Source: the human T2T-CHM13v2.0 reference genome, Homo sapiens
Assembly (NCBI RefSeq): GCF_009914755.1
Contig: NC_060933.1
Length of the DNA: 64,000 nt
Direction: 5' to 3' (one strand)
Part shown: positions 1-44,724 of the stretch, piece after piece
How positions within the stretch are numbered: position 1 is the first letter of the stretch
How the letters are laid out: the number at the start of each line of letters is the position of its first letter
The notes under the pieces: model-generated
Databases searched by the model: none
The model's input: only the letters and a program-made list of their open reading frames with translations
What the model was told of the DNA's origin: nothing
Made by a program: the position numbers and the translations under genes

Positions 1-99
1 ACAGGGCTGCGTGGCCAGCTGGGTGTGGGAGGTGCCAACACAGTAAGGGCTGGTCAAGGGGTGGCCGGGAGCGATACGGGGGGGTTGCTCAAGAAATCA

Positions 100-770
100 C
101 CGCTGGAACTGGGATCAAGTCATCCCACTTCTGGACGTATCGCCTAAGGACACGAAATCGGGATGTGGTGCAAATATGTGTCCTGCTGCGTTGGTTGTCG
201 GCACGCTACCTGTAACCAAGACGTGGAATCGACCTAAGTGCCCATCAGCAGATGACTAGAGAAGGACAAAGGAGTGGGGTTCGCAGAAGAAACACATCAG
301 GGAAAGGAAAGGAGAGCCGGTCATCTGGGACGTCATGCACGGACCCAAAAGTCATGGTGCCCAGTGAAATCAGCCAGGCCCATCCGACCCGTATTGCGTG
401 ATCTCCTTGGGATGTGGGATGGAAAGCGGTGAGGATCGCGAAAGTAGAGAGGAGAAAGGTGGTTGGCCGGGCCTGGGGCCGGGGTAGGGGCAGGGAAAAG
501 ATGCCCATGCGAGATGTGGGTCAAAGGGCACAAAGTTTCCGAGAGGCAGGTGGAGTGCTTCCTGGATATCCGTGGCAGGGCAACGTGAGTACGGTGGAGC
601 AGAATGTAAGGTTCTCGTGAATATACCCACGGGAGTAGAGCTGAAAATTCTCCCGACAGGGACAGGGGACGCATGTGGGGCGATAAGTGTGTGAATTCGG
701 CCGATTCTAGTGAATTCCCTAATGAAGACGTCACACACGGTAAGTGTGTATCATATTTATTGTCATTCAT
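100..770 (+). mobile_element. Ancient L1M(A)-type LINE-1 3' fragment, present in every monomer and strongly GC-enriched
   Basis: Blocks CATCCCACTTCTGG, TGGAATCGACCTAAGTGCCCATCAGCAGATGA, AGTGAAATCAGCCAGGC, AAGTAGAGAGGAGAAAGGTGGTT and GGTCAAAGGGCACAAAGTTTC are colinear with the L1MA ORF2-end/3'UTR. They also parallel the AT-rich L1MA at 51843-52480. Boundaries are approximate. Confidence 0.8.
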
Positions 771-1209
771 ACTTGAAGGCACCGGCGGGGGAAGGAAATA
801 ATTAAATCGCAAGACAAAACCTCCAAGAGAGATCACCTCGAAGAGAGTCTAACGTCCGTAGGAACGCTCTCGGGTTCACAAGGATTGACCGAACCCCAGG
901 ATACGTCGCTCTCCATCTGAGGCTTGCTCCAAATGGCCCTCCACTATTCCAGGCACGTGGGTGTCTCCCCTAACTCTCCCTGCTCTCCTGAGCCCATGCT
1001 GCCTATCACCCATCGGTGCAGGTCCTTTCTGAAGAGCTCGGGTGGATTCTCTCCATCCCACTTCCTTTCCCAAGAAAGAAGCCACCGTTCCAAGACACCC
1101 AATGGGACATTCCCCTTCCACCTCCTTCTCCAAAGTTGCCCAGGTGTTCATCACAGGTTAGGGAGAGAAGCCCCCAGGTTTCAGTTACAAGGCATAGGAC
1201 GCTGGCATG

Positions 1210-1210
<1 letters not shown>

Positions 1211-1252
<42 letters not shown>
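1211..1252. repeat. (AC)n microsatellite, one per monomer
   Basis: Counted repeat numbers for monomers 1-9: 21, 19, 22, 21, 22, 19, 21, 19, 21. Confidence 0.97.
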
Positions 1253-1254
<2 letters not shown>

Positions 1255-1698
1255 CTCGAAGAGGTAGCCACAAGGGTCATTAAACACTTGACGACTGTTT
1301 TCCAAAAACGTGGATGCAGTTCATCCACGCCAAAGCCAAGGGTGCAAAGCAAACACGGAATGGTGGAGAGATTCCAGAGGCTCACCAAACCCTCTCAGGA
1401 ATATTTTCCTGACCCTGGGGGCAGAGGTTGGAAACATTGAGGACATTTCTTGGGACACACGGAGAAGCTGACCGACCAGGCATTTTCCTTTCCACTGCAA
1501 ATGACCTATGGCGGGGGCATTTCACTTTCCCCTGCAAATCACCTATGGCGAGGTACCTCCCCAAGCCCCCACCCCCACTTCCGCGAATCGGCATGGCTCG
1601 GCCTCTATCCGGGTGTCACTCCAGGTAGGCTTCTCAACGCTCTCGGCTCAAAGAAGGACAATCACAGGTCCAAGCCCAAAGCCCACACCTCTTCCTTT

Positions 1699-2346
1699 TG
1701 TTATACCCACAGAAGTTAGAGAAAACGCCACACTTTGAGACAAATTAAGAGTCCTTTATTTAAGCCGGCGGCCAAAGAGATGGCTAACGCTCAAAATTCT
1801 CTGGGCCCCGAGGAAGGGGCTTGACTAACTTCTATACCTTGGTTTAGGAAGGGGAGGGGAACTCAAATGCGGTAATTCTACAGAAGTAAAAACATGCAGG
1901 AATCAAAAGAAGCAAATGGTTATAGAGAGATAAACAGTTTTAAAAGGCAAATGGTTACAAAAGGCAACGGTACCAGGTGCGGGGCTCTAAATCCTTCATG
2001 ACACTTAGATATAGGTGCTATGCTGGACACGAACTCAAGGCTTTATGTTGTTATCTCTTCGAGAAAAATCCTGGGAACTTCATGCACTGTTTGTGCCAGT
2101 ACCTTATCAGTTGATTGGGCTCCCTTGAAATGCTGAGTATCTGCTTACACAGGTCAACTCCTTGCGGAAGGGGGTTGGGTAAGGAGCCCTTCGTGTCTCG
2201 TAAATTAAGGGGTCGATTGGAGTTTGTCCAGCATTCCCAGCTACAGAGAGCCTTATTTACATGAGAAGCAAGGCTAGGTGATTAAAGAGACCGACAGGGA
2301 AGATTCAAAGTAGCGACTTAGAGTAAAAACAAGGTTAGGCATTTCA
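1699..2346 (-). mobile_element. ERV1-class solo LTR (648 bp), monomer 1
   Basis: TG...CA termini (minus strand TGAAATGCCTAACCTTGTTTTTACT...GGGTATAACA) flanked by a perfect 4-bp TSD CTTT (1695-1698 and 2347-2350). Minus-strand AATAAA at 1760-1755 near the 3' end. The 5' end resembles LTR6-like ERV1 LTRs; subfamily not assigned. Confidence 0.9.
1755..1760 (-). terminator. Candidate polyadenylation signal AATAAA (LTR-derived) for the predicted minus-strand gene; one per monomer
   Basis: Plus-strand TTTATT at 1755-1760 is the first canonical minus-strand AATAAA I found downstream of the stop codon at 2716. Confidence 0.45.
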
Positions 2347-2479
2347 CTTTCCCAGAGAACGCGCAAACATTCAATGGGAGAGAGGTCCCGAGTCGTCAAA
2401 GTCCCAGATGTGGTGAGGCCCCGGGAGGAAAAACCGTGTCTTCCTTAGGATGCCCGGAACAAGAGCTAGGCTTCCGGAG

Positions 2480-3780
2480 CTAGGCAGCCATCTATGTCCG
2501 TGAGCCGGCGGGAGGGAGACCGCCGGGAGGCGAAGTGGGGCGGGGCCATCCTTCTTTCTGCTCTGCTGCTGCCGGGGAGCTCCTGGCTGGCGTCCAAGCG
2601 GCAGGAGGCCGCCGTCCTGCAGGGCGCCGTAGAGTTTGCGGTGCAGAGTCGGGATCGCCTCTGGGGCAGAGGGTTCGAGCTTTTCCAAGGCGAGGGTGCT
2701 GGCTCCCGTGCGCACCTAAGGCCCCCCAGGAGCGGGCGCAAAGGGCGGCGGGCCCGCGGGCCAGGGCCCCGCAGCCAGCAGGCTGTCGAGCGTGGCCAGC
2801 GCCCAGTGCAGGGCGGCCCCGGCGTGCGCCAGCTGCCAGGTGAGCCAGGCGCGCTGCGAGGCGCTGGGCTGCGTGCCGCCGGCGGGCCCCGGGAGGAAGG
2901 CGCCCCCCGGGGCCCGAAGCTCGCCCAGGGCCACGTCCAGCCCGCCCAGGTGGTTGACGACTCGCGAGAGCGGGCACGGGAGGGAGACCCAGGCTTCTGG
3001 GGAGTGGCGTCGGCGGCGCTTTGGGGAGGTGGGTCGCTCCTCCCGGACGTCAACGCGGCGTTGCGGGCCGCTCGTCCTCCCTGGCGATCTAGGCCGGTGC
3101 TTTGGCTCCTCCAGGCGCCTCGGGCTGGGAACAGAACCTGCGCGGGAGACAGAGCGGGAGGTGTCAGAGGGACTGCGCGCAGCGCTAGGGGACCCATTTC
3201 CAAGGTCCCGAAGCCGCTCCCGACCCCGCCTCCCCATGCCCTCCATCCCCCACCCCTCCGCGGCTCGCCTCCGCGCCCCATCCTCTCGGCCCCTCCCTGC
3301 ATCCTGGGGACTCCGGTGCCCCGTCCGGGGTGCCCTCCCCTCCGCCCGTTCAAACTTGAAGCACATCTCATCTGGGGCCACCGGGGGCCCGGGTTCCTGG
3401 CGCACTGAGGGCTTCCTCGGCCCCCTCGGGGCCCCCCACTCCCCGCTCCCCTTCCCGGGGCCCTGCGCCCTCCTCCCCACCCCTCCAAGCTCCCAGCCCC
3501 TAAACCTGCCTCCTCTGCGCTCGTGGGGGCGTCGTGCTCTGCCGGACTCGGGCTTGTCGTGGCCTCGCTCTCCGGCTGGGGCTGGTCGTGGCTTGACCTT
3601 CCGCCCTCGGTTTCCGGTTTCTCTGCCGGGACTGCGAGGGGAGCCGTCGGGGCTTCTCCACCGTTTGTGCCTGGACGCAGAGGCCTCCCGGCTGTGCCCG
3701 CTGAAAGCTGCGGGGGAAGAGGAGGTCGACAGTGAGTGGGCCATGACCCGTCCGTAGACGGCTGCGGGAGGGTTGCAAGG
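2480..3780. other. CpG island / very GC-rich core of the monomer, covering predicted exons 2-3; repeated in each monomer
   Basis: Dense CpG dinucleotides and visibly very high GC content (not computed). Boundaries are approximate. Confidence 0.85.
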
Positions 3781-4217
3781 GCCAAGCTCCCAGAGTGACT
3801 TCAAGGCAGGAATGGCTCTGCTCCCAGGTGTCCCCCACCCCCTCCTCTTTCTCCAGCTGCCCAAGACCTCCAGGCCCCACTCCCCTGGTCCCTTCCTGTC
3901 TCCTGACTCTGGCTGTTCCCCAGCTGCCTGCCACCCTCCAGCAAACCCTCCTCCGCGGGCGCACCCAGAGGATGGCCCAGCTGGCGGAGCCACCCAGCAC
4001 ACAAAAAGTCTGCCTTTCTTTGACCTTAGGTTTCCCCACCACCTGCCGGATCAGGGCCCGTGGGGCGGGGGCCGCTGCCTTTGTCACCCCAGCTCTAACT
4101 CTCCTGCCTCCCTGGCCCCTGCCACCCCCTCCACACACCAATCCGCACAGACGAGACACTCGACCCTCACTCACCTCGTCCTCTCTCAGAGCCCTCCCGG
4201 GTCTTGCGTGTCTCCAT
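2716..4217 (-). CDS. Predicted 3-exon gene, copy 1 (coding exons 4217-4175, 3707-3510, 3137-2716): 220-aa Arg/Ser/Pro-rich, probably nuclear protein of unknown function
   Basis: Kozak AAGATGG at 4217. Intron 1: donor GAG|GTGAGT (4175/4174), branch CTCAC, acceptor CCTCCTCTTCCCCCGCAG| (3708/3707). Intron 2: GC donor GAG|GCAGGT (3510/3509), branch CTGAC, acceptor CTCTGTCTCCCGCGCAG| (3138/3137). TAG at 2718-2716. Both junctions are phase 1; 43+198+422=663 nt. Protein METRKTREGSERGRAFSGHSREASASRHKRWRSP...TSPKRRRRHSPEAWVSLPCPLSRVVNHLGGLDVALGELR...QRAWLTWQLAHAGAALHWALATLDSLLAAGPWPAGPPPFAPAPGGP. Confidence 0.6.
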
Positions 4218-4369
4218 CTTCCCCTGCTTTCCACAGGGAGGTCTGTCTTCTCCCGTCTCCTCAAAGGACAGCTTCCCCATCCAGGAAAGAGCTCTGTGTT
4301 CCCGGCGAGGAGGCTCTAACCTCTGGCAGCCTGAGCAGCGCAAGCCGGGCAATGGCCGGTTGGGCGCAG

Positions 4370-4475
4370 CCGGCGGGCTTTGATAGGGAGCCAGGACCCC
4401 CTGCTGGGAGTTCCCAGGAGGATTGGCTGCGGACACGCCCACAGTGGCAGGCTACCTTGATTAGGTTAGGCGGGT
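4370..4475 (-). promoter_or_regulatory. Candidate proximal promoter of the predicted gene: DUX4-type double-homeobox motif, CCAAT box, GC boxes and a TATA-like/TCF element; one per monomer
   Basis: Minus-strand TAACCTAATCA at 4468-4458 matches DUX4 consensus TAAYYYAATCA. AGCCAATC at 4428-4421. TATCAAAG (plus-strand CTTTGAT, 4378-4384). GGCGGG at 4372 and 4469. DUX motif copies start at 9900, 15330, 20758, 26188, 31608, 37056, 42480 and 47928. Confidence 0.55.
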
Positions 4476-4691
4476 TGGAGGGGTTCCGCTTTCTCCCTGG
4501 GTCCCTGCCGCTCTGTCTCCCGCAAGTGATGAGCAATTTTGCGGAGTGGCAGAACAGAGACAAAGGTAGCTGTGGGCTTCACGGTAATTTCAAAGGAAGT
4601 GCCCTACTTCGTTGCCCATTTCGAAGTCCTCTCTACCTCTGCGTTGGACGATTTCTCCACTTCCTGGTGTGCACCTGCGTGTGTGCGTGCC

Positions 4692-4730
4692 TGTGTGTGT
4701 GTGTGTGTGTGTGCGCGCGCGCGCGCGTGC
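4692..4730. repeat. Compound (TG)n(CG)n microsatellite, one per monomer
   Basis: (TG)11(CG)7 in monomer 1; both blocks vary in length between monomers. Confidence 0.95.
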
Positions 4731-6655
4731 TGGGGTGTGTGCATACTATGCCGAGAGTCGGGCAAATTTCGAGTGAAGGGAGACCGAGTCCCGCAGGTTC
4801 TCTTGCTCCTGCAGTCTGCGGAGGAAAAACTCCTTTCTGGCACGGCGGCAGGAATCCATCTACCGACGTTAGGAAAGGACAGGGTGTGCTTTCGTCCCAG
4901 CTTAGTTTTCTATGGAGAAACAGGCAGCAGAGGAGAGTGGGCCAGAGGGCCACATTTTGCCCACGACCAGCCAGGTTTGAGTTGGTTCCTCCTAGGCCTC
5001 ACGGTCTGATTTTCTCCTCCCCTTTGTGTACCCGACGGGTGTTGCTCTGAGCTCAGGACCATCCCGGCGGGCTGCGGATGGGATCATCGTGTGTGTATGG
5101 CCACAGCCCTCCGCCTCGCTCGCTCGGTGAGCACGTGAATCAAGGAAGGGGCACACGACTCTAGGCAGGACCCGGCGGGGTGTGGGGAGGAGAAACTCGG
5201 TAAGAGAAGAGAGGGAGAGGGAGACGTGCGAGGCGCAGGCTGTCCCAGGCGAGTCTGAGAAACGGCGTGCGCGGAGACGTCCGCCAGAAAGCAAGCAGGC
5301 GAAAGGAAATGGAACGTCCGCAGGGCCGGTGCCGTGGGATCCGGTCACGCCCTGACGGCTTTCGGGGACATCTCAGGCTCGCTGTCTCCGCCTTGGACCT
5401 GGCGCAGAGAGGAGTGAGGCCTGAGGACAGGGCTGCGTGGCCAGCTGGGTGTGGGAGGTGCCAACACAGTAAGGGCTGGTCAAGGGGTGGCCGGGAGCGA
5501 TACGGGGGGGTTGCTCAAGAAATCACCGCTGGAACTGGGATTCCAGTCCAGTGGGATACGTCCAGTCATCCCACTTCTGGACGTATCGCCTAAGGACACG
5601 AAATCGGGATGTGGTGCAAATATGTGTCCTGCTGCGTTGGTTGTCGGCACGCTGCCTGTAACCAAGACGTGGAATCGACCTAAGTGCCCATCAGCAGATG
5701 ACTAGAGAAGGACAAAGGAGTGGGGTTCGCAGAAGAAACACATCAGGGAAAGGAAAGGAGAGCCGGTCATCTGGGACGTCATGCATGGACCCAAAAGTCA
5801 TGGTGCCCAGTGAAATCAGCCAGGCCCATCCGACCCGTATTGCGTGATCTCCTTGGGATGTGGGATGGAAAGCGGTGAGGATCGCGAAAGTAGAGAGGAG
5901 AAAGGTGGTTGGCCGGGCCTGGGGCCGGGGTAGGGGCAGGGAAAAGATGCCCATGCGAGATGTGGGTCAAAGGGCAGAAAGTTTCCGAGAGGCAGGTGGA
6001 GTGCTTCCTGGATATCCGTGGCAGGGCAACGCGAGTACGGTGGAGCAGAATGTAAGGTTCTCGTGAATATACCCACGGGAGTAGAGCTGAAAATTCTCCC
6101 GACAGGGACAGGGGACGCATGTGGGGCGATAAGTGTGTGAATTCGGCCGATTCTAGTGAATTCCCTAATGAAGACGTCACACACGGTAAGTGTGTATCAT
6201 ATTTATTGTCATTCATACTTGAAGGCACCGGCGGGGGAAGGAAATAATTAAATCGCAAGACAAAACTTCCAAGAGAGATCACCTCGAAGAGAGTCTAACG
6301 TCCGTAGGAACGCTCTCGGGTTCACAAGGATTGACCGAACCCCAGGATACGTCGCTCTCCATCTGAGGCTTGCTCCAAATGGCCCTCCACTATTCCAGGC
6401 ACGTGGGTGTCTCCCCTAACTCTCCCTGCTCTCCTGAGCCCATGCTGCCTATCACCCATCGGTGCAGGTCCTTTCTGAAGAGCTCGGGTGGATTCTCTCC
6501 ATCCCACTTCCTTTCCCAAGAAAGAAGCCACCGTTCCAAGACACCCAATGGGACATTCCCCTTCCACCTCCTTCTCCAAAGTTGCCCAGGTGTTCATCAC
6601 AGGTTAGGGAGAGAAGCCCCCAGGTTTCAGTTACAAGGCATAGGACGCTGGCATG

Positions 6656-6696
<41 letters not shown>

Positions 6697-7140
6697 CTCG
6701 AAGAGGTAGCCACAAGGGTCATTAAACACTTGACGACTGTTTTCCAAAAACGTGGATGCAGTTCATCCACGCCAAAGCCAAGGGTGCAAAGCAAACACGG
6801 AATGGTGGAGAGATTCCAGAGGCTCACCAAACCCTCTCAGGAATATTTTCCTGACCCTGGGGGCAGAGGTTGGAAACATTGAGGACATTTCTTGGGACAC
6901 ACGGAGAAGCTGACCGACCAGGCATTTTCCTTTCCACTGCAAATGACCTATGGCGGGGGCATTTCACTTTCCCCTGCAAATCACCTATGGCGAGGTACCT
7001 CCCCAAGCCCCCACCCCCACTTCCGCGAATCGGCATGGCTCGGCCTCTATCCGGGTGTCACTCCAGGTAGGCTTCTCAACGCTCTCGGCTCAAAGAAGGA
7101 CAATCACAGGTCCAAGCCCAAAGCCCACACCTCTTCCTTT

Positions 7141-7788
7141 TGTTATACCCACAGAAGTTAGAGAAAACGCCACACTTTGAGACAAATTAAGAGTCCTTTA
7201 TTTAAGCCGGCGGCCAAAGAGATGGCTAACGCTCAAAATTCTCTGGGCCCCGAGGAAGGGGCTTGACTAACTTCTATACCTTGGTTTAGGAAGGGGAGGG
7301 GAACTCAAATGCGGTAATTCTACAGAAGTAAAAACATGCAGGAATCAAAAGAAGCAAATGGTTATAGAGAGATAAACAGTTTTAAAAGGCAAATGGTTAC
7401 AAAAGGCAACGGTACCAGGTGCGGGGCTCTAAATCCTTCATGACACTTAGATATAGGTGCTATGCTGGACACGAACTCAAGGCTTTATGTTGTTATCTCT
7501 TCGAGAAAAATCCTGGGAACTTCATGCACTGTTTGTGCCAGTATCTTATCAGTTGATTGGGCTCCCTTGAAATGCTGAGTATCTGCTTACACAGGTCAAC
7601 TCCTTGCGGAAGGGGGTTGGGTAAGGAGCCCTTCGTGTCTCGTAAATTAAGGGGTCGATTGGAGTTTGTCCAGCATTCCCAGCTACAGAGAGCCTTATTT
7701 ACATGAGAAGCAAGGCTAGGTGATTAAAGAGACCGACAGGGAAGATTCAAAGTAGCGACTTAGAGTAAAAACAAGGTTAGGCATTTCA
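7141..7788 (-). mobile_element. ERV1-class solo LTR, monomer 2
   Basis: Copy of 1699-2346 with CTTT TSD. Confidence 0.9.
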
Positions 7789-8157
7789 CTTTCCCAGAGA
7801 ACGCGCAAACATTCAATGGGAGAGAGGTCCCGAGTCGTCAAAGTCCCAGATGTGGCGAGCCCCCGGGAGGAAAAACCGTGTCTTCCTTAGGATGCCCGGA
7901 ACAAGAGCTAGGCTTCCGGAGCTAGGCAGCCATCTATGTCCGTGAGCCGGCGGGAGGGAGACCGCCGGGAGGCGAAGTGGGGCGGGGCCATCCTTCTTTC
8001 TGCTCTGCTGCTGCCGGGGAGCTCCTGGCTGGCGTCCAAGCGGCAGGAGGCCGCCGTCCTGCAGGGCGCCGTAGAGTTTGCGGTGCAGAGTCGGGATCGC
8101 CTCTGGGGCAGAGGGTTCGAGCTTTTCCAAGGCGAGGGTGCTGGCTCCCGTGCGCAC

Positions 8158-9659
8158 CTAAGGCCCCCCAGGAGCGGGCGCAAAGGGCGGCGGGCCCGCG
8201 GGCCAGGGCCCCGCAGCCAGCAGGCTGTCGAGCGTGGCCAGCGCCCAGTGCAGGGCGGCCCCGGCGTGCGCCAGCTGCCAGGTGAGCCAGGCGCGCTGCG
8301 AGGCGCTGGGCTGCGTGCCGCCGGCGGGCCCCGGGAGGAAGGCGCCCCCCGGGGCCCGAAGCTCGCCCAGGGCCACGTCCAGCCCGCCCAGGTGGTTGAC
8401 GACTCGCGAGAGCGGGCACGGGAGGGAGACCCAGGCTTCTGGGGAGTGGCGTCGGCGGCGCTTTGGGGAGGTGGGTCGCTCCTCCCGGACGTCAACGCGG
8501 CGTTGCGGGCCGCTCGTCCTCCCTGGCGATCTAGGCCGGTGCTTTGGCTCCTCCAGGCGCCTCGGGCTGGGAACAGAACCTGCGCGGGAGACAGAGCGGG
8601 AGGTGCCAGAGGGACTGCGCGCAGCGCTAGGGGACCCATTTCCAAGGTCCCGAAGCCGCTCCCGACCCCGCCTCCCCCTGCCCTCCATCCCCCACCCCTC
8701 CGCGGCTCGCCTCCGCGCCCCATCCTCTCGGCCCCTCCCTGCATCCTGGGGACTCCGGTGCCCCGTCCGGGGTGCCCTCCCCTCCGCCCGTTCAAACTTG
8801 AAGCACATCTCATCTGGGGCCACCGGGGGCCCGGGTTCCTGGCGCACTGAGGGCTTCCTCGGCCCCCTCGGGGCCCCCCACTCCCCGCTCCCCTTCCCGG
8901 GGCCCTGCGCCCTCCTCCCCACCCCTCCAAGCTCCCAGCCCCTAAACCTGCCTCCTCTGCGCTCGTGGGGGCGTCGTGCTCTGCCGGACTCGGGCTTGTC
9001 GTGGCCTCGCTCTCCGGCTGGGGCTGGTCGTGGCTTGACCTTCCGCCCTCGGTTTCCGGTTTCTCTGCCGGGACTGCGAGGGGAGCCGTCGGGGCTTCTC
9101 CACCGTTTGTGCCTGGACGCAGAGGCCTCCCGGCTGTGCCCGCTGGAAGCTGCGGGGGAAGAGGAGGTCGACAGTGAGTGGGCCATGACCCGTCCGTAGA
9201 CGGCTGCGGGAGGGTTGCAAGGGCCAAGCTCCCAGAGTGACTTCAAGGCAGGAATGGCTCTGCTCCCAGGTGTCCCCCACCCCCTCCTCTTTCTCCAGCT
9301 GCCCAAGACCTCCAGGCCCCACTCCCCTGGTCCCTTCCTGTCTCCTCACTCTGGCTGTTCCCCAGCTGCCTGGCACCCTCCAGCAAACCCTCCTCCGCGG
9401 GCGCACCCAGAGGATGGCCCAGCTGGCGGAGCCACCCAGCACACAAAAAGTCTGCCTTTCTTTGACCTTAGGTTTCCCCACCACCTGCCGGATCAGGGCC
9501 CGTGGGGCGGGGGCCGCTGCCTTTGTCACCCCAGCTCTAACTCTCCTGCCTCCCTGGCCCCTGCCACCCCCTCCACACACCAATCCGCACAGACGAGACA
9601 CTCGACCCTCACTCACCTCGTCCTCTCTCAGAGCCCTCCCGGTTCTTGCGGGTCTCCAT
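8158..9659 (-). CDS. Predicted 3-exon gene, copy 2 (intron-2 branch-point variant)
   Basis: Same signals at offset +5442; ORF intact; begins METRKNREG. Confidence 0.55.
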
Positions 9660-12079
9660 CTTCCCCTGCTTTCCACAGGGAGGTCTGTCTTCTCCCGTCT
9701 CCTCAAAGGACAGCTTCCCCATCCAGGAAAGAGCTCTGTGTTCCCGGCGAGGAGGCTCTACCCTCTGGCAGCCTGAGCAGCGCAAGCGGGGCAATGGCCG
9801 GTTGGGCGCAGCCGGCGGGCTTTGATAGGGAGCCAGGACCCCCTGCTGGGAGTTCCCAGGAGGATTGGCTGCGGACACGCCCACAGGGGCAGGCTACCTT
9901 GATTAGGTTAGGCGGGTTGGAGGGGTTCCGCTTTCTCCCTGGGTCCCTGCCGCTCTGTCTCCGGCAAGTGATGAGCAATTTTGCGGAGTGGCAGAACAGA
10001 GACAAAGGTAGCTGTGGGCTTCACGGTAATTTCAAAGGAAGTGCCCTACTTCGTTGCCCATTTCGAAGTCCTCTCTACCTCTGCGTTGGACGATTTCTCC
10101 ACTTCCTGGTGTGCACCTGCGTGTGTGCGTGCCTGTGTGTGTGTGTGTGTGTGCGCGCGCGCGCGCGCGCGTGCTGGGGTGTGTGCACACTATGCCGAGA
10201 GTCGGGCAAATTTCGAGTGAAGGGAGACCGAGTCCCGCAGGTTCTCTTGCTCCTGCAGTCTGCGGAGGAAAAACTCCTTTCTGGCACGGCGGCAGGAATC
10301 CATCTACCGACGTTAGGAAAGGACAGGGTGTGCTTTCGTCCCAGCTTAGTTTTCTATGGAGAAACAGGCAGCAGAGGAGAGTGGGCCAGAGGGCCACATT
10401 TTGCCCACGACCAGCCAGGTTTGAGTTGGTTCCTCCTAGGCCTCACGGTCTGATTTTCTCCTCCCCTTTGTGTACCCGACGGGTGTTGCTCTGAGCTCAG
10501 GACCATCCCGGCGGGCTGCGGATGGGATCATCGTGTGTGTATGGCCACAGCCCTCCGCCTCGCTCGCTCGGTGAGCACGTGAATCAAGGAAGGGGCACAC
10601 GACTCTAGGCAGGACCCGGCGGGGTGTGGGGAGGAGAAACTCGGTAAGAGAAGAGAGGGAGAGGGAGACGTGCGAGGCGCAGGCTGTCCCAGGCGAGTCT
10701 TAGAAACCGCGTGCGCGGAGACGTCCGCCAGAAAGCAAGCAGGCGAAAGGAAATGGAACATCCGCAGGGCCGGTGCCGTGGGATCCGGTCACGCCCTGAC
10801 GGCTTTCGGGGACATCTCAGGCTCGCTGTCTCCGCCTTGGACCTGGCGCAGAGAGGAGTGAGGCCTGAGGACAGGGCTGCGTGGCCAGCTGGGTGTGGGA
10901 GGTGCCAACACAGTAAGGGCTGGTCAAGGGGTGGCCGGGAGCGATACGGGGGGGTTGCTCAAGAAATCACCGCTGGAACTGGGATCAAGTCATCCCACTT
11001 CTGGACGTATCGCCTAAGGACACGAAATCGGGATGTGGTGCAAATATGTGTCCTGCTGCGTTGGTTGTCGGCACGCTACCTGTAACCAAGACGTGGAATC
11101 GACCTAAGTGCCCATCAGCAGATGACTAGAGAAGGACAAAGGAGTGGGGTTCGCAGAAGAAACACATCAGGGAAAGGAAAGGAGAGCCGGTCATCTGGGA
11201 CGTCATGCACGGACCCAAAAGTCATGGTGCCCAGTGAAATCAGCCAGGCCCATCCGACCCGTATTGCGTGATCTCCTTGGGATGTGGGATGGAAAGCGGT
11301 GAGGATCGCGAAAGTAGAGAGGAGAAAGGTGGTTGGCCGGGCCTGGGGCCGGGGTAGGGGCAGGGAAAAGATGCCCATGCGAGATGTGGGTCAAAGGGCA
11401 CAAAGTTTCCGAGAGGCAGGTGGAGTGCTTCCTGGATATCCGTGGCAGGGCAACGTGAGTACGGTGGAGCAGAATGTAAGGTTCTCGTGAATATACCCAC
11501 GGGAGTAGAGCTGAAAATTCTCCCGACAGGGACAGGGGACGCATGTGGGGCGATAAGTGTGTGAATTCGGCCGATTCTAGTGAATTCCCTAATGAAGACG
11601 TCACACACGGTAAGTGTGTATCATATTTATTGTCATTCATACTTGAAGGCACCGGCGGGGGAAGGAAATAATTAAATCGCAAGACAAAACCTCCAAGAGA
11701 GATCACCTCGAAGAGAGTCTAACGTCCGTAGGAACGCTCTCGGGTTCACAAGGATTGACCGAACCCCAGGATACGTCGCTCTCCATCTGAGGCTTGCTCC
11801 AAATGGCCCTCCACTATTCCAGGCACGTGGGTGTCTCCCCTAACTCTCCCTGCTCTCCTGAGCCCATGCTGCCTATCACCCATCGGTGCAGGTCCTTTCT
11901 GAAGAGCTCGGGTGGATTCTCTCCATCCCACTTCCTTTCCCAAGAAAGAAGCCACCGTTCCAAGACACCCAATGGGACATTCCCCTTCCACCTCCTTCTC
12001 CAAAGTTGCCCAGGTGTTCATCACAGGTTAGGGAGAGAAGCCCCCAGGTTTCAGTTACAAGGCATAGGACGCTGGCATG

Positions 12080-12126
<47 letters not shown>

Positions 12127-12570
12127 CTCGAAGAGGTAGCCACAAGGGTCATTAAACACTTGACGACTGTTTTCCAAAAACGTGGATGCAGTTCATCCAC
12201 GCCAAAGCCAAGGGTGCAAAGCAAACACGGAATGGTGGAGAGATTCCAGAGGCTCACCAAACCCTCTCAGGAATATTTTCCTGACCCTGGGGGCAGAGGT
12301 TGGAAACATTGAGGACATTTCTTGGGACACACGGAGAAGCTGACCGACCAGGCATTTTCCTTTCCACTGCAAATGACCTATGGCGGGGGCATTTCACTTT
12401 CTCCTGCAAATCACCTATGGCGAGGTACCTCCCCAAGCCCCCACCCCCACTTCCGCGAATCGGCATGGCTCGGCCTCTATCCGGGTGTCACTCCAGGTAG
12501 GCTTCTCAACGCTCTCGGCTCAAAGAAGGACAATCACAGGTCCAAGCCCAAAGCCCACACCTCTTCCTTT

Positions 12571-13218
12571 TGTTATACCCACAGAAGTTAGAGAAAACGC
12601 CACACTTTGAGACAAATTAAGAGTCCTTTATTTAAGCCGGCGGCCAAAGAGATGGCTAACGCTCAAAATTCTCTGGGCCCCGAGGAAGGGGCTTGACTAA
12701 CTTCTATACCTTGGTTTAGGAAGGGGAGGGGAACTCAAATGCGGTAATTCTACAGAAGTAAAAACATGCAGGAATCAAAAGAAGCAAATGGTTATAGAGA
12801 GATAAACAGTTTTAAAAGGCAAATGGTTACAAAAGGCAACGGTACCAGGTGCGGGGCTCTAAATCCTTCATGACACTTAGATATAGGTGCTATGCTGGAC
12901 ACGAACTCAAGGCTTTATGTTGTTATCTCTTCGAGAAAAATCCTGGGAACTTCATGCACTGTTTGTGCCAGTATCTTATCAGTTGATTGGGCTCCCTTGA
13001 AATGCTGAGTATCTGCTTACACAGGTCAACTCCTTGCGGAAGGGGGTTGGGTAAGGAGCCCTTCGTGTCTCGTAAATTAAGGGGTCGATTGGAGTTTGTC
13101 CAGCATTCCCAGCTACAGAGAGCCTTATTTACATGAGAAGCAAGGCTAGGTGATTAAAGAGACCGACAGGGAAGATTCAAAGTAGCGACTTAGAGTAAAA
13201 ACAAGGTTAGGCATTTCA
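12571..13218 (-). mobile_element. ERV1-class solo LTR, monomer 3
   Basis: Copy of 1699-2346. Confidence 0.9.
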
Positions 13219-13587
13219 CTTTCCCAGAGAACGCGCAAACATTCAATGGGAGAGAGGTCCCGAGTCGTCAAAGTCCCAGATGTGGCGAGCCCCCGGGAGG
13301 AAAAACCGTGTCTTCCTTAGGATGCCCGGAACAAGAGCTAGGCTTCCGGAGCTAGGCAGCCATCTATGTCCGTGAGCCGGCGGGAGGGAGACCGCCGGGA
13401 GGCGAAGTGGGGCGGGGCCATCCTTCTTTCTGCTCTGCTGCTGCCGGGGAGCTCCTGGCTGGCGTCCAAGCGGCAGGAGGCCGCCGTCCTGCAGGGCGCC
13501 GTAGAGTTTGCGGTGCAGAGTCGGGATCGCCTCTGGGGCAGAGGGTTCGAGCTTTTCCAAGGCGAGGGTGCTGGCTCCCGTGCGCAC

Positions 13588-15089
13588 CTAAGGCCCCCCA
13601 GGAGCGGGCGCAAAGGGCGGCGGGCCCGCGGGCCAGGGCCCCGCAGCCAGCAGGCTGTCGAGCGTGGCCAGCGCCCAGTGCAGGGCGGCCCCGGCGTGCG
13701 CCAGCTGCCAGGTGAGCCAGGCGCGCTGCGAGGCGCTGGGCTGCGTGCCGCCGGCGGGCCCCGGGAGGAAGGCGCCCCCCGGGGCCCGAAGCTCGCCCAG
13801 GGCCACGTCCAGCCCGCCCAGGTGGTTGACGACTCGCGAGAGCGGGCACGGGAGGGAGACCCAGGCTTCTGGGGAGTGGCGTCGGCGGCGCTTTGGGGAG
13901 GTGGGTCGCTCCTCCCGGACGTCAACGCGGCGTTGCGGGCCGCTCGTCCTCCCTGGCGATCTAGGCCGGTGCTTTGGCTCCTCCAGGCGCCTCGGGCTGG
14001 GAACAGAACCTGCGCGGGAGACAGAGCGGGAGGTGCCAGAGGGACTGCGCGCAGCGCTAGGGGACCCATTTCCAAGGTCCCGAAGCCGCTCCCGACCCCG
14101 CCTCCCCCTGCCCTCCATCCCCCACCCCTCCGCGGCTCGCCTCCGCGCCCCATCCTCTCGGCCCCTCCCTGCATCCTGGGGACTCCGGTGCCCCGTCCGG
14201 GGTGCCCTCCCCTCCGCCCGTTCAAACTTGAAGCACATCTCATCTGGGGCCACCGGGGGCCCGGGTTCCTGGCGCACTGAGGGCTTCCTCGGCCCCCTCG
14301 GGGCCCCCCACTCCCCGCTCCCCTTCCCGGGGCCCTGCGCCCTCCTCCCCACCCCTCCAAGCTCCCAGCCCCTAAACCTGCCTCCTCTGCGCTCGTGGGG
14401 GCGTCGTGCTCTGCCGGACTCGGGCTTGTCGTGGCCTCGCTCTCCGGCTGGGGCTGGTCGTGGCTTGACCTTCCGCCCTCGGTTTCCGGTTTCTCTGCCG
14501 GGACTGCGAGGGGAGCCGTCGGGGCTTCTCCACCGTTTGTGCCTGGACGCAGAGGCCTCCCGGCTGTGCCCGCTGGAAGCTGCGGGGGAAGAGGAGGTCG
14601 ACAGTGAGTGGGCCATGACCCGTCCGTAGACGGCTGCGGGAGGGTTGCAAGGGCCAAGCTCCCAGAGTGACTTCAAGGCAGGAATGGCTCTGCTCCCAGG
14701 TGTCCCCCACCCCCTCCTCTTTCTCCAGCTGCCCAAGACCTCCAGGCCCCACTCCCCTGGTCCCTTCCTGTCTCCTGACTCTGGCTGTTCCCCAGCTGCC
14801 TGGCACCCTCCAGCAAACCCTCCTCCGCGGGCGCACCCAGAGGATGGCCCAGCTGGCGGAGCCACCCAGCACACAAAAAGTCTGCCTTTCTTTGACCTTA
14901 GGTTTCCCCACCACCTGCCGGATCAGGGCCCGTGGGGCGGGGGCCGCTGCCTTTGTCACCCCAGCTCTAACTCTCCTGCCTCCCTGGCCCCTGCCACCCC
15001 CTCCACACACCAATCCGCACAGACGAGACACTCGACCCTCACTCACCTCGTCCTCTCTCAGAGCCCTCCCGGTTCTTGCGGGTCTCCAT
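13588..15089 (-). CDS. Predicted 3-exon gene, copy 3 (intron-2 branch-point variant)
   Basis: Same signals at offset +10872; ORF intact. Confidence 0.55.
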
Positions 15090-17509
15090 CTTCCCCTGCT
15101 TTCCACAGGGAGGTCTGTCTTCTCCCGTCTCCTCAAAGGACAGCTTCCCCATCCAGGAAAGAGCTCTGTGTTCCCGGCGAGGAGGCTCTACCCTCTGGCA
15201 GCCTGAGCAGCGCAAGCGGGGCAATGGCCGGTTGGGCGCAGCCGGCGGGCTTTGATAGGGAGCCAGGACCCCCTGCTGGGAGTTCCCAGGAGGATTGGCT
15301 GCGGACACGCCCACAGGGGCAGGCTACCTTGATTAGGTTAGGCGGGTTGGAGGGGTTCCGCTTTCTCCCTGGGTCCCTGCCGCTCTGTCTCCGGCAAGTG
15401 ATGAGCAATTTTGCGGAGTGGCAGAACAGAGACAAAGGTAGCTGTGGGCTTCACGGTAATTTCAAAGGAAGTGCCCTACTTCGTTGCCCATTTCGAAGTC
15501 CTCTCTACCTCTGCGTTGGACGATTTCTCCACTTCCTGGTGTGCACCTGCGTGTGTGCGTGCCTGTGTGTGTGTGTGTGTGTGCGCGCGCGCGCGCGCGC
15601 GTGCTGGGGTGTGTGCACACTATGCCGAGAGTCGGGCAAATTTCGAGTGAAGGGAGACCGAGTCCCGCAGGTTCTCTTGCTCCTGCAGTCTGCGGAGGAA
15701 AAACTCCTTTCTGGCACGGCGGCAGGAATCCATCTACCGACGTTAGGAAAGGACAGGGTGTGCTTTCGTCCCAGCTTAGTTTTCTATGGAGAAACAGGCA
15801 GCAGAGGAGAGTGGGCCAGAGGGCCACATTTTGCCCACGACCAGCCAGGTTTGAGTTGGTTCCTCCTAGGCCTCACGGTCTGATTTTCTCCTCCCCTTTG
15901 TGTACCCGACGGGTGTTGCTCTGAGCTCAGGACCATCCCGGCGGGCTGCGGATGGGATCATCGTGTGTGTATGGCCACAGCCCTCCGCCTCGCTCGCTCG
16001 GTGAGCACGTGAATCAAGGAAGGGGCACACGACTCTAGGCAGGACCCGGCGGGGTGTGGGGAGGAGAAACTCGGTAAGAGAAGAGAGGGAGAGGGAGACG
16101 TGCGAGGCGCAGGCTGTCCCAGGCGAGTCTTAGAAACCGCGTGCGCGGAGACGTCCGCCAGAAAGCAAGCAGGCGAAAGGAAATGGAACATCCGCAGGGC
16201 CGGTGCCGTGGGATCCGGTCACGCCCTGACGGCTTTCGGGGACATCTCAGGCTCGCTGTCTCCGCCTTGGACCTGGCGCAGAGAGGAGTGAGGCCTGAGG
16301 ACAGGGCTGCGTGGCCAGCTGGGTGTGGGAGGTGCCAACACAGTAAGGGCTGGTCAAGGGGTGGCCGGGAGCGATACGGGGGGGTTGCTCAAGAAATCAC
16401 CGCTGGAACTGGGATCAAGTCATCCCACTTCTGGACGTATCGCCTAAGGACACGAAATCGGGATGTGGTGCAAATATGTGTCCTGCTGCGTTGGTTGTCG
16501 GCACGCTACCTGTAACCAAGACGTGGAATCGACCTAAGTGCCCATCAGCAGATGACTAGAGAAGGACAAAGGAGTGGGGTTCGCAGAAGAAACACATCAG
16601 GGAAAGGAAAGGAGAGCCGGTCATCTGGGACGTCATGCACGGACCCAAAAGTCATGGTGCCCAGTGAAATCAGCCAGGCCCATCCGACCCGTATTGCGTG
16701 ATCTCCTTGGGATGTGGGATGGAAAGCGGTGAGGATCGCGAAAGTAGAGAGGAGAAAGGTGGTTGGCCGGGCCTGGGGCCGGGGTAGGGGCAGGGAAAAG
16801 ATGCCCATGCGAGATGTGGGTCAAAGGGCACAAAGTTTCCGAGAGGCAGGTGGAGTGCTTCCTGGATATCCGTGGCAGGGCAACGTGAGTACGGTGGAGC
16901 AGAATGTAAGGTTCTCGTGAATATACCCACGGGAGTAGAGCTGAAAATTCTCCCGACAGGGACAGGGGACGCATGTGGGGCGATAAGTGTGTGAATTCGG
17001 CCGATTCTAGTGAATTCCCTAATGAAGACGTCACACACGGTAAGTGTGTATCATATTTATTGTCATTCATACTTGAAGGCACCGGCGGGGGAAGGAAATA
17101 ATTAAATCGCAAGACAAAACCTCCAAGAGAGATCACCTCGAAGAGAGTCTAACGTCCGTAGGAACGCTCTCGGGTTCACAAGGATTGACCGAACCCCAGG
17201 ATACGTCGCTCTCCATCTGAGGCTTGCTCCAAATGGCCCTCCACTATTCCAGGCACGTGGGTGTCTCCCCTAACTCTCCCTGCTCTCCTGAGCCCATGCT
17301 GCCTATCACCCATCGGTGCAGGTCCTTTCTGAAGAGCTCGGGTGGATTCTCTCCATCCCACTTCCTTTCCCAAGAAAGAAGCCACCGTTCCAAGACACCC
17401 AATGGGACATTCCCCTTCCACCTCCTTCTCCAAAGTTGCCCAGGTGTTCATCACAGGTTAGGGAGAGAAGCCCCCAGGTTTCAGTTACAAGGCATAGGAC
17501 GCTGGCATG

Positions 17510-17554
<45 letters not shown>

Positions 17555-17998
17555 CTCGAAGAGGTAGCCACAAGGGTCATTAAACACTTGACGACTGTTT
17601 TCCAAAAACGTGGATGCAGTTCATCCACGCCAAAGCCAAGGGTGCAAAGCAAACACGGAATGGTGGAGAGATTCCAGAGGCTCACCAAACCCTCTCAGGA
17701 ATATTTTCCTGACCCTGGGGGCAGAGGTTGGAAACATTGAGGACATTTCTTGGGACACACGGAGAAGCTGACCGACCAGGCATTTTCCTTTCCACTGCAA
17801 ATGACCTATGGCGGGGGCATTTCACTTTCTCCTGCAAATCACCTATGGCGAGGTACCTCCCCAAGCCCCCACCCCCACTTCCGCGAATCGGCATGGCTCG
17901 GCCTCTATCCGGGTGTCACTCCAGGTAGGCTTCTCAACGCTCTCGGCTCAAAGAAGGACAATCACAGGTCCAAGCCCAAAGCCCACACCTCTTCCTTT

Positions 17999-18646
17999 TG
18001 TTATACCCACAGAAGTTAGAGAAAACGCCACACTTTGAGACAAATTAAGAGTCCTTTATTTAAGCCGGCGGCCAAAGAGATGGCTAACGCTCAAAATTCT
18101 CTGGGCCCCGAGGAAGGGGCTTGACTAACTTCTATACCTTGGTTTAGGAAGGGGAGGGGAACTCAAATGCGGTAATTCTACAGAAGTAAAAACATGCAGG
18201 AATCAAAAGAAGCAAATGGTTATAGAGAGATAAACAGTTTTAAAAGGCAAATGGTTACAAAAGGCAACGGTACCAGGTGCGGGGCTCTAAATCCTTCATG
18301 ACACTTAGATATAGGTGCTATGCTGGACACGAACTCAAGGCTTTATGTTGTTATCTCTTCGAGAAAAATCCTGGGAACTTCATGCACTGTTTGTGCCAGT
18401 ATCTTATCAGTTGATTGGGCTCCCTTGAAATGCTGAGTATCTGCTTACACAGGTCAACTCCTTGCGGAAGGGGGTTGGGTAAGGAGCCCTTCGTGTCTCG
18501 TAAATTAAGGGGTCGATTGGAGTTTGTCCAGCATTCCCAGCTACAGAGAGCCTTATTTACATGAGAAGCAAGGCTAGGTGATTAAAGAGACCAACAGGGA
18601 AGATTCAAAGTAGCGACTTAGAGTAAAAACAAGGTTAGGCATTTCA
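17999..18646 (-). mobile_element. ERV1-class solo LTR, monomer 4
   Basis: Copy of 1699-2346. Confidence 0.9.
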
Positions 18647-19015
18647 CTTTCCCAGAGAACGCGCAAACATTCAATGGGAGAGAGGTCCCGAGTCGTCAAA
18701 GTCCCAGATGTGGCGAGCCCCCGGGAGGAAAAACCGTGTCTTCCTTAGGATGCCCGGAACAAGAGCTAGGCTTCCGGAGCTAGGCAGCCATCTATGTCCG
18801 TGAGCCGGCGGGAGGGAGACCGCCGGGAGGCGAAGTGGGGCGGGGCCATCCTTCTTTCTGCTCTGCTGCTGCCGGGGAGCTCCTGGCTGGCGTCCAAGCG
18901 GCAGGAGGCCGCCGTCCTGCAGGGCGCCGTAGAGTTTGCGGTGCAGAGTCGGGATCGCCTCTGGGGCAGAGGGTTCGAGCTTTTCCAAGGCGAGGGTGCT
19001 GGCTCCCGTGCGCAC

Positions 19016-20517
19016 CTAAGGCCCCCCAGGAGCGGGCGCAAAGGGCGGCGGGCCCGCGGGCCAGGGCCCCGCAGCCAGCAGGCTGTCGAGCGTGGCCAGC
19101 GCCCAGTGCAGGGCGGCCCCGGCGTGCGCCAGCTGCCAGGTGAGCCAGGCGCGCTGCGAGGCGCTGGGCTGCGTGCCGCCGGCGGGCCCCGGGAGGAAGG
19201 CGCCCCCCGGGGCCCGAAGCTCGCCCAGGGCCACGTCCAGCCCGCCCAGGTGGTTGACGACTCGCGAGAGCGGGCACGGGAGGGAGACCCAGGCTTCTGG
19301 GGAGTGGCGTCGGCGGCGCTTTGGGGAGGTGGGTCGCTCCTCCCGGACGTCAACGCGGCGTTGCGGGCCGCTCGTCCTCCCTGGCGATCTAGGCCGGTGC
19401 TTTGGCTCCTCCAGGCGCCTCGGGCTGGGAACAGAACCTGCGCGGGAGACAGAGCGGGAGGTGTCAGAGGGACTGCGCGCAGCGCTAGGGGACCCATTTC
19501 CAAGGTCCCGAAGCCGCTCCCGACCCCGCCTCCCCCTGCCCTCCATCCCCCACCCCTCCGCGGCTCGCCTCCGCGCCCCATCCTCTCGGCCCCTCCCTGC
19601 ATCCTGGGGACTCCGGTGCCCCGTCCGGGGTGCCCTCCCCTCCGCCCGTTCAAACTTGAAGCACATCTCATCTGGGGCCACCGGGGGCCCGGGTTCCTGG
19701 CGCACTGAGGGCTTCCTCGGCCCCCTCGGGGCCCCCCACTCCCCGCTCCCCTTCCCGGGGCCCTGCGCCCTCCTCCCCACCCCTCCAAGCTCCCAGCCCC
19801 TAAACCTGCCTCCTCTGCGCTCGTGGGGGCGTCGTGCTCTGCCGGACTCGGGCTTGTCGTGGCCTCGCTCTCCGGCTGGGGCTGGTCGTGGCTTGACCTT
19901 CCGCCCTCGGTTTCCGGTTTCTCTGCCGGGACTGCGAGGGGAGCCGTCGGGGCTTCTCCACCGTTTGTGCCTGGACGCAGAGGCCTCCCGGCTGTGCCCG
20001 CTGGAAGCTGCGGGGGAAGAGGAGGTCGACAGTGAGTGGGCCATGACCCGTCCGTAGACGGCTGCGGGAGGGTTGCAAGGGCCAAGCTCCCAGAGTGACT
20101 TCAAGGCAGGAATGGCTCTGCTCCCAGGTGTCCCCCACCCCCTCCTCTTTCTCCAGCTGCCCAAGACCTCCAGGCCCCACTCCCCTGGTCCCTTCCTGTC
20201 TCCTGACTCTGGCTGTTCCCCAGCTGCCTGGCACCCTCCAGCAAACCCTCCTCCGCGGGCGCACCCAGAGGATGGCCCAGCTGGCGGAGCCACCCAGCAC
20301 ACAAAAAGTCTGCCTTTCTTTGACCTTAGGTTTCCCCACCACCTGCCGGATCAGGGCCCGTGGGGCGGGGGCCGCTGCCTTTGTCACCCCAGCTCTAACT
20401 CTCCTGCCTCCCTGGCCCCTGCCACCCCCTCCACACACCAATCCGCACAGACGAGACACTCGACCCTCACTCACCTCGTCCTCTCTCAGAGCCCTCCCGG
20501 TTCTTGCGGGTCTCCAT
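19016..20517 (-). CDS. Predicted 3-exon gene, copy 4
   Basis: Same signals at offset +16300; ORF intact. Confidence 0.58.

Positions 20518-22937: not shown

Positions 22938-22984
<47 letters not shown>

Positions 22985-28363: not shown

Positions 28364-28404
<41 letters not shown>

Positions 28405-31842: not shown

Positions 31843-31873
<31 letters not shown>

Positions 31874-33807: not shown

Positions 33808-33852
<45 letters not shown>

Positions 33853-37290: not shown

Positions 37291-37321
<31 letters not shown>

Positions 37322-39235: not shown

Positions 39236-39276
<41 letters not shown>

Positions 39277-42714: not shown

Positions 42715-42745
<31 letters not shown>

Positions 42746-44679: not shown

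Positions 44680-44724
<45 letters not shown>

What the first reader, a model, noticed from the sequence alone, without database searches (positions are those of the whole stretch)
2716..3137. Predicted protein architecture: basic disordered arm, phospho-flanked NLS and a compact Trp/Leu-rich helical C-terminal module
Seen in sequence: the first ~125 residues are low-complexity with many SP sites (RSPD, GSPRSPG, PSPR, RSPG) and TSPKRRRRHSP, a basic cluster with an adjoining CDK-type S-P-x-R site. Composition then changes abruptly to LSRVVNHLGGLDVALGELR and SQRAWLTWQLAHAGAALHWALATLDSLLA, with helix-like spacing of hydrophobic residues and terminal L-rich motifs. Such patterning is absent from the other frames of this segment. 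Inference: a nuclear protein with a small helical interaction domain, possibly an unannotated family.
Basis: inference. Interest (0 to 1): 0.7.

Follow-up and report, generated by a model that had tools for sequence, protein, structure and literature searches.

The report
Hidden mammalian gene inside ZAV macrosatellite
Every unit of a human tandem repeat on chromosome 9 that was described as having no reading frame carries an intact reading frame for a protein conserved across placental mammals, likely an overlooked gene switched on in testis and, by prediction, in the early embryo.

Summary
The segment is real coding-type sequence, but it is one exon, not a whole protein. 3137-2716 (minus strand) is the last exon of a predicted 3-exon gene (241 or 220 aa) in each 5.44-kb unit of the ZAV/MSat10 macrosatellite at 9q32. 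The frame and splice sites are intact in 11 of 11 CHM13 copies. RefSeq lists no gene here and the paper that named the array reports no ORF. Homologues occur in primates, rodents, ungulates, whales, carnivores, bats, dugong and anteater; the tree follows species. The 66-aa core is far more conserved (median 68%) than the basic arm (26-41%) and is predicted to be two helices. It has no Pfam family or solved relative. Published testis and fetal-brain RT-PCR primers fall inside this exon. A DUX4 consensus site lies 178 nt upstream of the first ATG. Mouse Gm11232, linked to the family by name only, behaves as a 2-cell-like gene. Best reading: a DUX-driven embryo/testis nuclear adaptor protein. Not shown: human splicing, translation, DUX4 binding, localisation, partner. 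GENCODE was not checked.

The parts
2716..3137 (-). Exon 3 coding part (the finding): end of basic arm, conserved core, Pro-rich tail, TAG stop
   Evidence: Acceptor at 3139-3138 with 16 of 20 pyrimidines; homologues
2773..2970 (-). 66-aa conserved core, residues 158-223 of the 241-aa model; predicted helix (156-176), PGGAFL loop, helix (194-223)
   Evidence: Median identity 0.68 in 43 named homologues; 14 columns invariant in 42 of 42 rows; AF2 mean pLDDT 71, pTM 0.43
2998..3030 (-). Basic cluster TSPKRRRRHSP, candidate nuclear localisation signal
   Evidence: Sequence; K141 40 of 42, R144 38 of 42, P148 39 of 42; function untested
2951..3104 (.). Published 154-bp RT-PCR amplicon, positive in testis and fetal brain
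   Evidence: Primers from PMC3018141 Table 1 map here; strand of the RNA not resolved
3138..3509 (-). Predicted intron 2, 372 nt, GC-AG type; open in frame (123 codons) but not conserved as protein
   Evidence: colobus model P0068 and whale models join at the same place
3510..3707 (-). Predicted exon 2 (66 codons; holds RSPD and GSPRSPG)
   Evidence: Median identity 0.41 in 39 homologues that cover it; acceptor 16 of 20 pyrimidines
3708..4174 (-). Predicted intron 1, 467 nt, GT-AG
   Evidence: Its donor is the best U1 match (7 of 9) in 3100-4320
4175..4280 (-). Predicted exon 1 coding part; ATG 4280 (weak context, 241 aa) or ATG 4217 (strong context, 220 aa)
   Evidence: colobus model P0068 starts at the second ATG; median identity 0.26 in 30 homologues that cover it
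4379..4440 (-). Promoter-like elements: GC box 4440, CCAAT 4426, TATA-like 4385
   Evidence: Pattern scan; motifs recalled, function inferred
4458..4468 (-). DUX4 consensus site TAACCTAATCA
   Evidence: 11 of 11 copies; identical to the consensus in PMC5409219; chance 0.0035 per unit
1755..1760 (-). Only AATAAA within 1.8 kb downstream of the stop; candidate poly(A) signal
   Evidence: use not shown
1..49676 (.). ZAV/MSat10 macrosatellite, units of 5,424-5,448 bp; further exon-3 copies end at 8158, 13588, 19016, 24446, 29866, 35314, 40738 and 46186
   Evidence: PMC3018141, PMC4063668

Best explanation
The segment is the conserved last exon of a predicted three-exon gene, intact in all 11 repeat copies, that likely makes a small basic nuclear protein in testis and is predicted to be switched on by DUX4 in the early embryo. 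Proposed working. (1) Shown: the locus encodes a eutherian protein family whose 66-aa core is under protein-level constraint. (2) Shown in print: this exon is transcribed in testis and fetal brain, and the array is methylated and heterochromatic in lymphoblastoid cells in proportion to copy number. (3) Inferred: DUX4 binds the site above exon 1 at genome activation and drives a short burst from many copies. (4) Inferred: the Arg/Ser/Pro-rich arm (pI 11.6) and the KRRRR cluster take the protein into the nucleus and onto chromatin or RNA. (5) Inferred: the two-helix core, too small to bury its invariant Trp and Leu residues alone, docks on a partner as part of a helical bundle, so the protein works as an adaptor or competitor subunit of a nuclear complex, not as an enzyme. 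My odds: real coding family in mammals 0.97; human copies translated 0.8; DUX4-driven 0.6; nuclear adaptor role 0.45.
For: 45 hits among 430 candidates and 103 among 7,990 scored; 43 named records span primates, tree shrew, rodents, cetartiodactyls, perissodactyls, carnivores, pangolin, bats, dugong and tamandua. Exon-3 tree (41 of 44 rows) recovers primates, muroid rodents, ruminants, whales and carnivores with starred support. Core vs arm differences significant in 6 of 7 species tested; core substitutions more conservative than random single-base changes (mean BLOSUM -0.15 vs -0.81, p 3e-5), arm not (p 0.58); human differs at 1 of 57 core columns (E to D) and 2 of 76 arm columns where colobus and titi agree. 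Spliced model outscores the unspliced ORF for 41 of 45 homologues. Frame and splice sites intact in 9 of 9 window copies and both upstream copies. Synteny: galago and bat models carry this exon joined to ZFP37. RT-PCR amplicon inside the exon. DUX4 site. Mouse Gm11232: log2 -3.94, -0.34, +0.72 in negative, Zscan4+ and MERVL+Zscan4+ cells; higher in transfected cells for 12 of 12 2C-state inducers, called differential for 6; falls from -0.75 to -4.48 and -4.26 on Dppa2 and Dppa4 knockdown.
Against: No human spliced read, peptide or localisation was seen. Intron 2 needs a GC donor, and most homologue sequences are gene predictions. Among the 11 human copies the CDS has 10 variable sites in 726 nt (6 replacement, 4 silent) against 7 in 839 intron nt, so no sign of selection within the array; the proximal copy changes invariant L204 to V and lacks the downstream AATAAA segment. 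Colobus core vs arm is not significant (p 0.33). The DUX4 site was noticed by eye, is single, and counts once, not 11 times; only about 0.8% of single-motif DUX4 peaks gave induced transcripts in myoblasts (PMC3836709). No chr9 row from the array was seen in the DUX4 tables searched (one search showed only part of the rows). I never saw the mouse Gm11232 sequence: the link is the name on hamster protein P0060, and Gm11232 lies about 9.5 Mb from Zfp37. It appeared only in the all-genes table of PMC5055476, not in its differential list. RefSeq RS_2025_08 has no gene here. The structure model is modest (pTM 0.34 and 0.43).
Confidence: 0.6

Rival explanations
1. It is a real protein-coding gene, but a testis (germ-cell) gene that does not depend on DUX4; the basic arm would act like other small basic spermatid chromatin or RNA-binding proteins.
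For: The only direct human expression data are testis and fetal brain, weaker in four other tissues. Single DUX4 motifs seldom start transcripts in myoblasts.
Against: Exact DUX4 consensus next to promoter-like elements and the 2C-like behaviour of mouse Gm11232. DUX4 is itself expressed in testis, so the two readings overlap.
Confidence: 0.22
2. The gene works in other mammals, but the human array is a transcribed, untranslated or dispensable relic whose effect is as a heterochromatic regulator of ZFP37.
For: No RefSeq gene; copy number tracks methylation and lower ZFP37 expression (PMC4063668); no selection signal among copies; GC donor; other mammals' models start about 25 codons further upstream.
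Against: Frame and all four splice sites intact in 11 of 11 copies; 3 human-specific changes in 133 columns; human terminal branch 0.026 against 0.087 for colobus.
Confidence: 0.13
3. The conservation is that of a DNA regulatory element in a CpG island, and the protein is a by-product of gene predictors reading GC-rich DNA; or the exon is an upstream exon of a ZFP37 fusion.
For: 73-75% GC gives long ORFs in several frames; a RefSeq enhancer (35286-35873) overlaps one copy of the exon; two species have fused models.
Against: Conservative amino-acid swaps confined to the core; three exons with homology in one joined frame; an unnamed 1,134-nt record encodes a 265-aa protein matching all three exons (P0087); the other named records are stand-alone proteins; both fused models lack the Met that starts human ZFP37 at the aligned position, which invites a predictor to extend upstream.
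Confidence: 0.05

Closest known systems
ZAV / MSat10 macrosatellite (PMC3018141; PMC4063668)
   Same: Same locus, unit size, position beside ZFP37; 3-31 units per allele; testis and fetal-brain transcription measured inside this exon.
   Different: Described as having no ORF and as a regulator of ZFP37; here each unit is found to hold an intact, conserved three-exon reading frame.
Uncharacterized mammalian LOC proteins and mouse Gm11232 (database names)
   Same: Same protein family by sequence (E down to 1e-82 with the profile); tree follows species.
   Different: Automatic names only, several misleading ('serine/arginine repetitive matrix-like', 'CLK4-associating'); no function, no Pfam model, no human counterpart in RefSeq RS_2025_08.
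Gene-bearing macrosatellites: TAF11-like (5p15), PRR20 (13q21), D4Z4/DUX4, RS447/USP17L
   Same: One gene per GC-rich tandem unit, copy-number polymorphic, testis expression (PMC3018141); ZAV hypomethylated in one FSHD2 sample, with variable controls (PMC5461771).
   Different: No sequence relation to those proteins found. That TAF11L and USP17L are DUX4 targets, and that RS447 encodes USP17L, is recalled, not checked here.
bHLH proteins (BMAL1, PDB 4h10_A)
   Same: Basic stretch followed by helix-loop-helix order; weak profile match E 0.2.
   Different: The bHLH basic-helix glutamate is replaced by a helix-breaking SP; the match vanished with the deeper profile; no bHLH among listed fold hits.

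Membership tests
Protein-coding gene family (eutherian, Gm11232-like) | Orthologous ORF conserved across mammals with protein-level constraint | tested here: met
Protein-coding gene family (eutherian, Gm11232-like) | Intact frame and splice signals in human | tested here: met
   11 of 11 copies; intron 2 is GC-AG
Protein-coding gene family (eutherian, Gm11232-like) | Spliced human mRNA and translated product | not testable with these tools
   Only unstranded RT-PCR within exon 3
Protein-coding gene family (eutherian, Gm11232-like) | Mouse Gm11232 sequence is a member | tested here: inconclusive
   Name on Phodopus P0060 and named Mus caroli and Mus pahari members; Mus musculus Gm11232 sequence not seen
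Gene-bearing macrosatellite | Multi-kb tandem units, variable number, one gene per unit | tested here: met
   3-31 units per allele in PMC3018141
Direct DUX4 target / genome-activation gene | DUX4 consensus near the start of the gene | tested here: met
   4468-4458; one site
Direct DUX4 target / genome-activation gene | DUX4 occupancy and induction in human cells | tested here: inconclusive
   Not seen in tables searched; peak calling used unique reads only; key tables too large to read
Direct DUX4 target / genome-activation gene | Homologue induced in the 2C-like programme | tested here: met
   Gm11232 rows in PMC5055476 and PMC6362816, subject to the name link; Dux dependence itself not seen
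bHLH | Basic helix with conserved E-x-x-R and Pfam HLH match | tested here: not met
   S-P-K-R instead; no HLH match in 46 members scanned
Known helical-hairpin folds (Mediator subunits, WXG100, coiled coils) | Structural match above background | tested here: inconclusive
   Best Foldseek E 2.5 and 3.8; best VIA Z 6.7 (rmsd 3.5, 74 aligned) and 7.1 (rmsd 4.1, 69 aligned), within background for helical models
Classical NLS with CDK switch | Conserved S/T-P-x-K/R beside the basic cluster | tested here: inconclusive
   22 of 42 sequences; absent in most muroid rodents; no localisation test

The most novel reading that the evidence does not exclude
A missing human protein-coding gene, present in 3-31 copies per allele, encodes a new eutherian-specific helical domain and is a conserved DUX4/Dux effector of embryonic genome activation whose dose is set by macrosatellite length and methylation, and which is mis-expressed in FSHD muscle but invisible to unique-read pipelines.
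Probability: 0.4. Interest if true: 0.88.

Novelty: new member of a known kind. Interest (0 to 1): 0.72.

Why it matters
Missing human protein-coding genes with about 100 million years of conservation (age recalled) are rare. This one would turn a macrosatellite studied as non-coding into a gene cluster with roughly tenfold copy variation between alleles, and would define a new protein domain. If DUX4 drives it, it adds a conserved candidate effector for embryonic genome activation and a candidate target in FSHD that unique-read analyses cannot see. All of this can be tested on existing public data.

Tried and rejected
Pfam: 0 families for 5 window ORFs; across 46 family members only scattered weak matches, at most 3 members each. 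NCBIfam: nothing near cut-off for 4 proteins. PDB by sequence: none; one weak BMAL1 match rejected. Foldseek and VIA-align on two models: generic helical hits only. ESM Atlas with two homologues: no usable feature hit, generic structure hits. Homodimer prediction: no verdict, score 0.02, alignment not used, not evidence either way. Profile search of 1.84 billion proteins: 46 hits, no named non-eutherian one; P0112, a repeat protein matching only the basic arm, was dropped as spurious; unnamed hits cannot be placed. Viral contigs: 12 pattern matches, none confirmed. First splice script picked wrong acceptors and was replaced. The unspliced 342-aa ORF from ATG 3744 was rejected as the main product: its ATG lies in predicted intron 1 and its 123-codon middle has no counterpart in most homologues. 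Literature searches that did not turn up a description of this gene or protein: (listings only). The names Gm11236-9, Gm12789/90 and C130073F10Rik used were recalled guesses and led nowhere. The PMC5409219 supplement held neither Gm11232 nor the control Zscan4c, so it is uninformative. In the Dppa2/4 knockout table Gm11232 is at floor in wild type too.

Full report
Setting. GC content repeats with a period of about 5.4 kb up to position 49,676. The finding occurs 9 times in the window at 99.8-100% identity and 11 times in the genome. This is the ZAV macrosatellite at 9q32, also called MSat10. PMC3018141 (passages, sections 12 and 20, Tables 1-2) gives 3-31 units per allele, expression in testis and fetal brain, and no ORF, while allowing that a short ORF without known homologues might exist. 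PMC4063668 (passages) reports methylation rising with copy number and lower ZFP37 expression. PMC5461771 (one passage) found ZAV hypomethylated in one male FSHD2 sample, with variable controls.

The observation. The motifs are in the minus-strand frame that stops at 2718-2716, and the composition switch is real. Two of the quoted SP motifs lie outside the stated span, in an upstream exon. Position 3137 is the first base after a good acceptor (16 of 20 pyrimidines). Helical periodicity alone is borderline (p 0.095 and 0.057), and the CDK-type site is kept in 22 of 42 sequences (2 of 44 rows dropped as frameshifted or partial).

Homologues. The 140-aa exon found 45 proteins among 430 candidates; a profile found 103 among 7,990 scored and 2 among 7,993 longer ones. 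Forty-three records carry species names, all placental mammals, including dugong and tamandua. A profile search of 1.84 billion representatives gave 46 hits, none named outside eutherians; unnamed hits cannot be placed. A tree of exon 3 (41 of 44 rows) recovers the main orders sampled, as expected of one vertically inherited family. Median identity to human is 0.68 in the 66-aa core, 0.38 in the basic part of exon 3, 0.41 in exon 2 and 0.26 in exon 1. Core substitutions are more conservative than random single-base changes (p 3e-5); arm substitutions are not (p 0.58). This points to selection on the protein, not only on CpG-island DNA.

Gene model. Homologues define three coding exons: 4280 (or 4217)-4175, 3707-3510 and 3137-2716, giving 241 or 220 aa, pI 11.6. 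Intron 1 is GT-AG; intron 2 is GC-AG. The spliced model outscores the unspliced ORF for 41 of 45 homologues; two of the four exceptions are intron-retaining translations. The frame and splice sites are intact in 9 of 9 window copies and in both upstream copies. Human differs at 3 of 133 columns where colobus and titi agree. Against: variation among the 11 copies shows no selection (6 replacement and 4 silent sites in 726 nt; 7 sites in 839 intron nt), the proximal copy changes an invariant Leu, most homologue sequences are predictions, and no human spliced read was seen.

Synteny and history. Galago and bat models join this exon to ZFP37; in human the proximal copy stops 3.4 kb from the ZFP37 start codon. 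The fusions are probably prediction artefacts or read-through, since both lack the Met of human ZFP37 at the aligned position. A decayed paralogue of the core lies about 130 kb away on the other strand (profile E 3e-13 within that locus).

Expression and control. The published RT-PCR primers map to 2951-3104, inside the exon, so the testis and fetal-brain signal comes from this sequence, strand unknown. TAACCTAATCA at 4468-4458 is the DUX4 consensus reported in PMC5409219 (passage). It sits 178 nt above the first ATG, with GC-box, CCAAT and TATA-like elements between (motifs recalled). Chance is 0.0035 per unit, but I noticed it by eye and the 11 copies are one observation. PMC4730607 (passages) ranks TAATCTAATCA as the most active form; a related C-containing site gave about 3-fold activation. 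PMC3836709 (passages, supplements) says about 0.8% of single-motif peaks gave induced transcripts and that peak calling was blind to non-unique sequence. In its peak table all 5 occurrences of the prefix 11584 belong to other chromosomes; other prefixes were only partly displayed, and the hg19 and hg38 offsets I used are recalled. No array row appeared among the chr9 rows of PMC8120133's tables. The main tables of PMC12057663 and PMC10616205 were too large to read and may bear on this. PMC12776069, PMC11196112 and the Hoyt preprint (main-text term searches) did not mention the locus or gene under the names tried; PMC5687341 only restates the MSat10 result.

Mouse. One family member is named Gm11232. 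In PMC5055476 (supplement row, legends) Gm11232 rises from log2 -3.94 to +0.72 in MERVL+Zscan4+ cells but appeared only in the all-genes table. In PMC6362816 (supplement rows, passages; 4 of 15 files not searched) it is higher in transfected cells for 12 of 12 inducers of the 2C-like state, called differential for 6, and drops about 3.5-3.7 log2 units on Dppa2 or Dppa4 knockdown; that paper places Dux downstream of these factors. The link to this family rests on a transferred name, and Gm11232 is about 9.5 Mb from Zfp37.

Structure and mechanism. AlphaFold2 gives a disordered arm and two helices, residues 156-176 and 194-223, joined by the invariant PGGA loop (pTM 0.34 and 0.43; second helix pLDDT about 88). 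No family, solved relative or specific fold match was found. Fourteen invariant columns, including W199, W202 and five Leu residues, sit on a module too small to bury them, and there is no enzyme-like constellation that I recognise. I therefore infer a docking surface. The committed model is a briefly expressed nuclear adaptor: the basic arm gives nuclear entry and nucleic-acid affinity, and the helical pair binds a partner complex. That last step is inference at about 0.45.

Verdict. A real, conserved gene family; the human member is absent from the RefSeq table supplied and was not found described in ten full-text searches of an open-access library (listings). GENCODE and subscription journals were not checked, and a 108-aa NCBI record 99% identical to the exon exists (P0001). 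As a kind, it joins the gene-bearing macrosatellites; the domain itself has no family model. Interest 0.72.

Noticed in passing
L012 / L019, G000:C9:125100987-125101277 (+): Decayed paralogue of the core exon about 130 kb from the array, CpG-poor, with the second helix eroded and an early stop; no upstream exons or DUX site found. P0115 is 97% identical to it, and P0111 is a divergent family member.
   Followed up: partly
P0046, P0047; L018: Galago and bat models fuse this exon to ZFP37; a real read-through KRAB-zinc-finger fusion in some lineages is not excluded.
   Followed up: partly
P0068, P0072, P0078 vs window 2718-2716: These monkey-type sequences read through the position of the human stop and gain a long C-terminal extension matching the human 3' UTR in frame.
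   Followed up: no
L018, G000:C9:125231844-125233408: The copy nearest ZFP37 is the most divergent (L204V, R109L, R25S) and lacks the unit segment holding the AATAAA.
   Followed up: partly
window 60339-60349 (-): A second perfect DUX4 site (TAATCTAATCA) outside the array, about 3.2 kb from the annotated end of FAM225B.
   Followed up: no
window 35286-35873 and 43159-43660: The two RefSeq 'enhancers' fall in repeat units; the first covers one copy of exon 3, so their placement on single copies is probably arbitrary.
   Followed up: no
window 3761 (-): A second in-frame acceptor 54 nt upstream of the exon-2 acceptor would add 18 residues.
   Followed up: no
window 1212-1252 and about 4680-4730: CA/GT microsatellites in each unit; they may account for the 5,424-5,448 bp spread in unit length.
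   Followed up: no
window 3704: The copy in the finding has Phe at residue 37 where the other 10 copies have Ser.
   Followed up: yes
G000:C9:126773061-126773288 (+): Weak match (E 0.22, three stops) to the tamandua protein on the same chromosome arm; may be chance.
   Followed up: no
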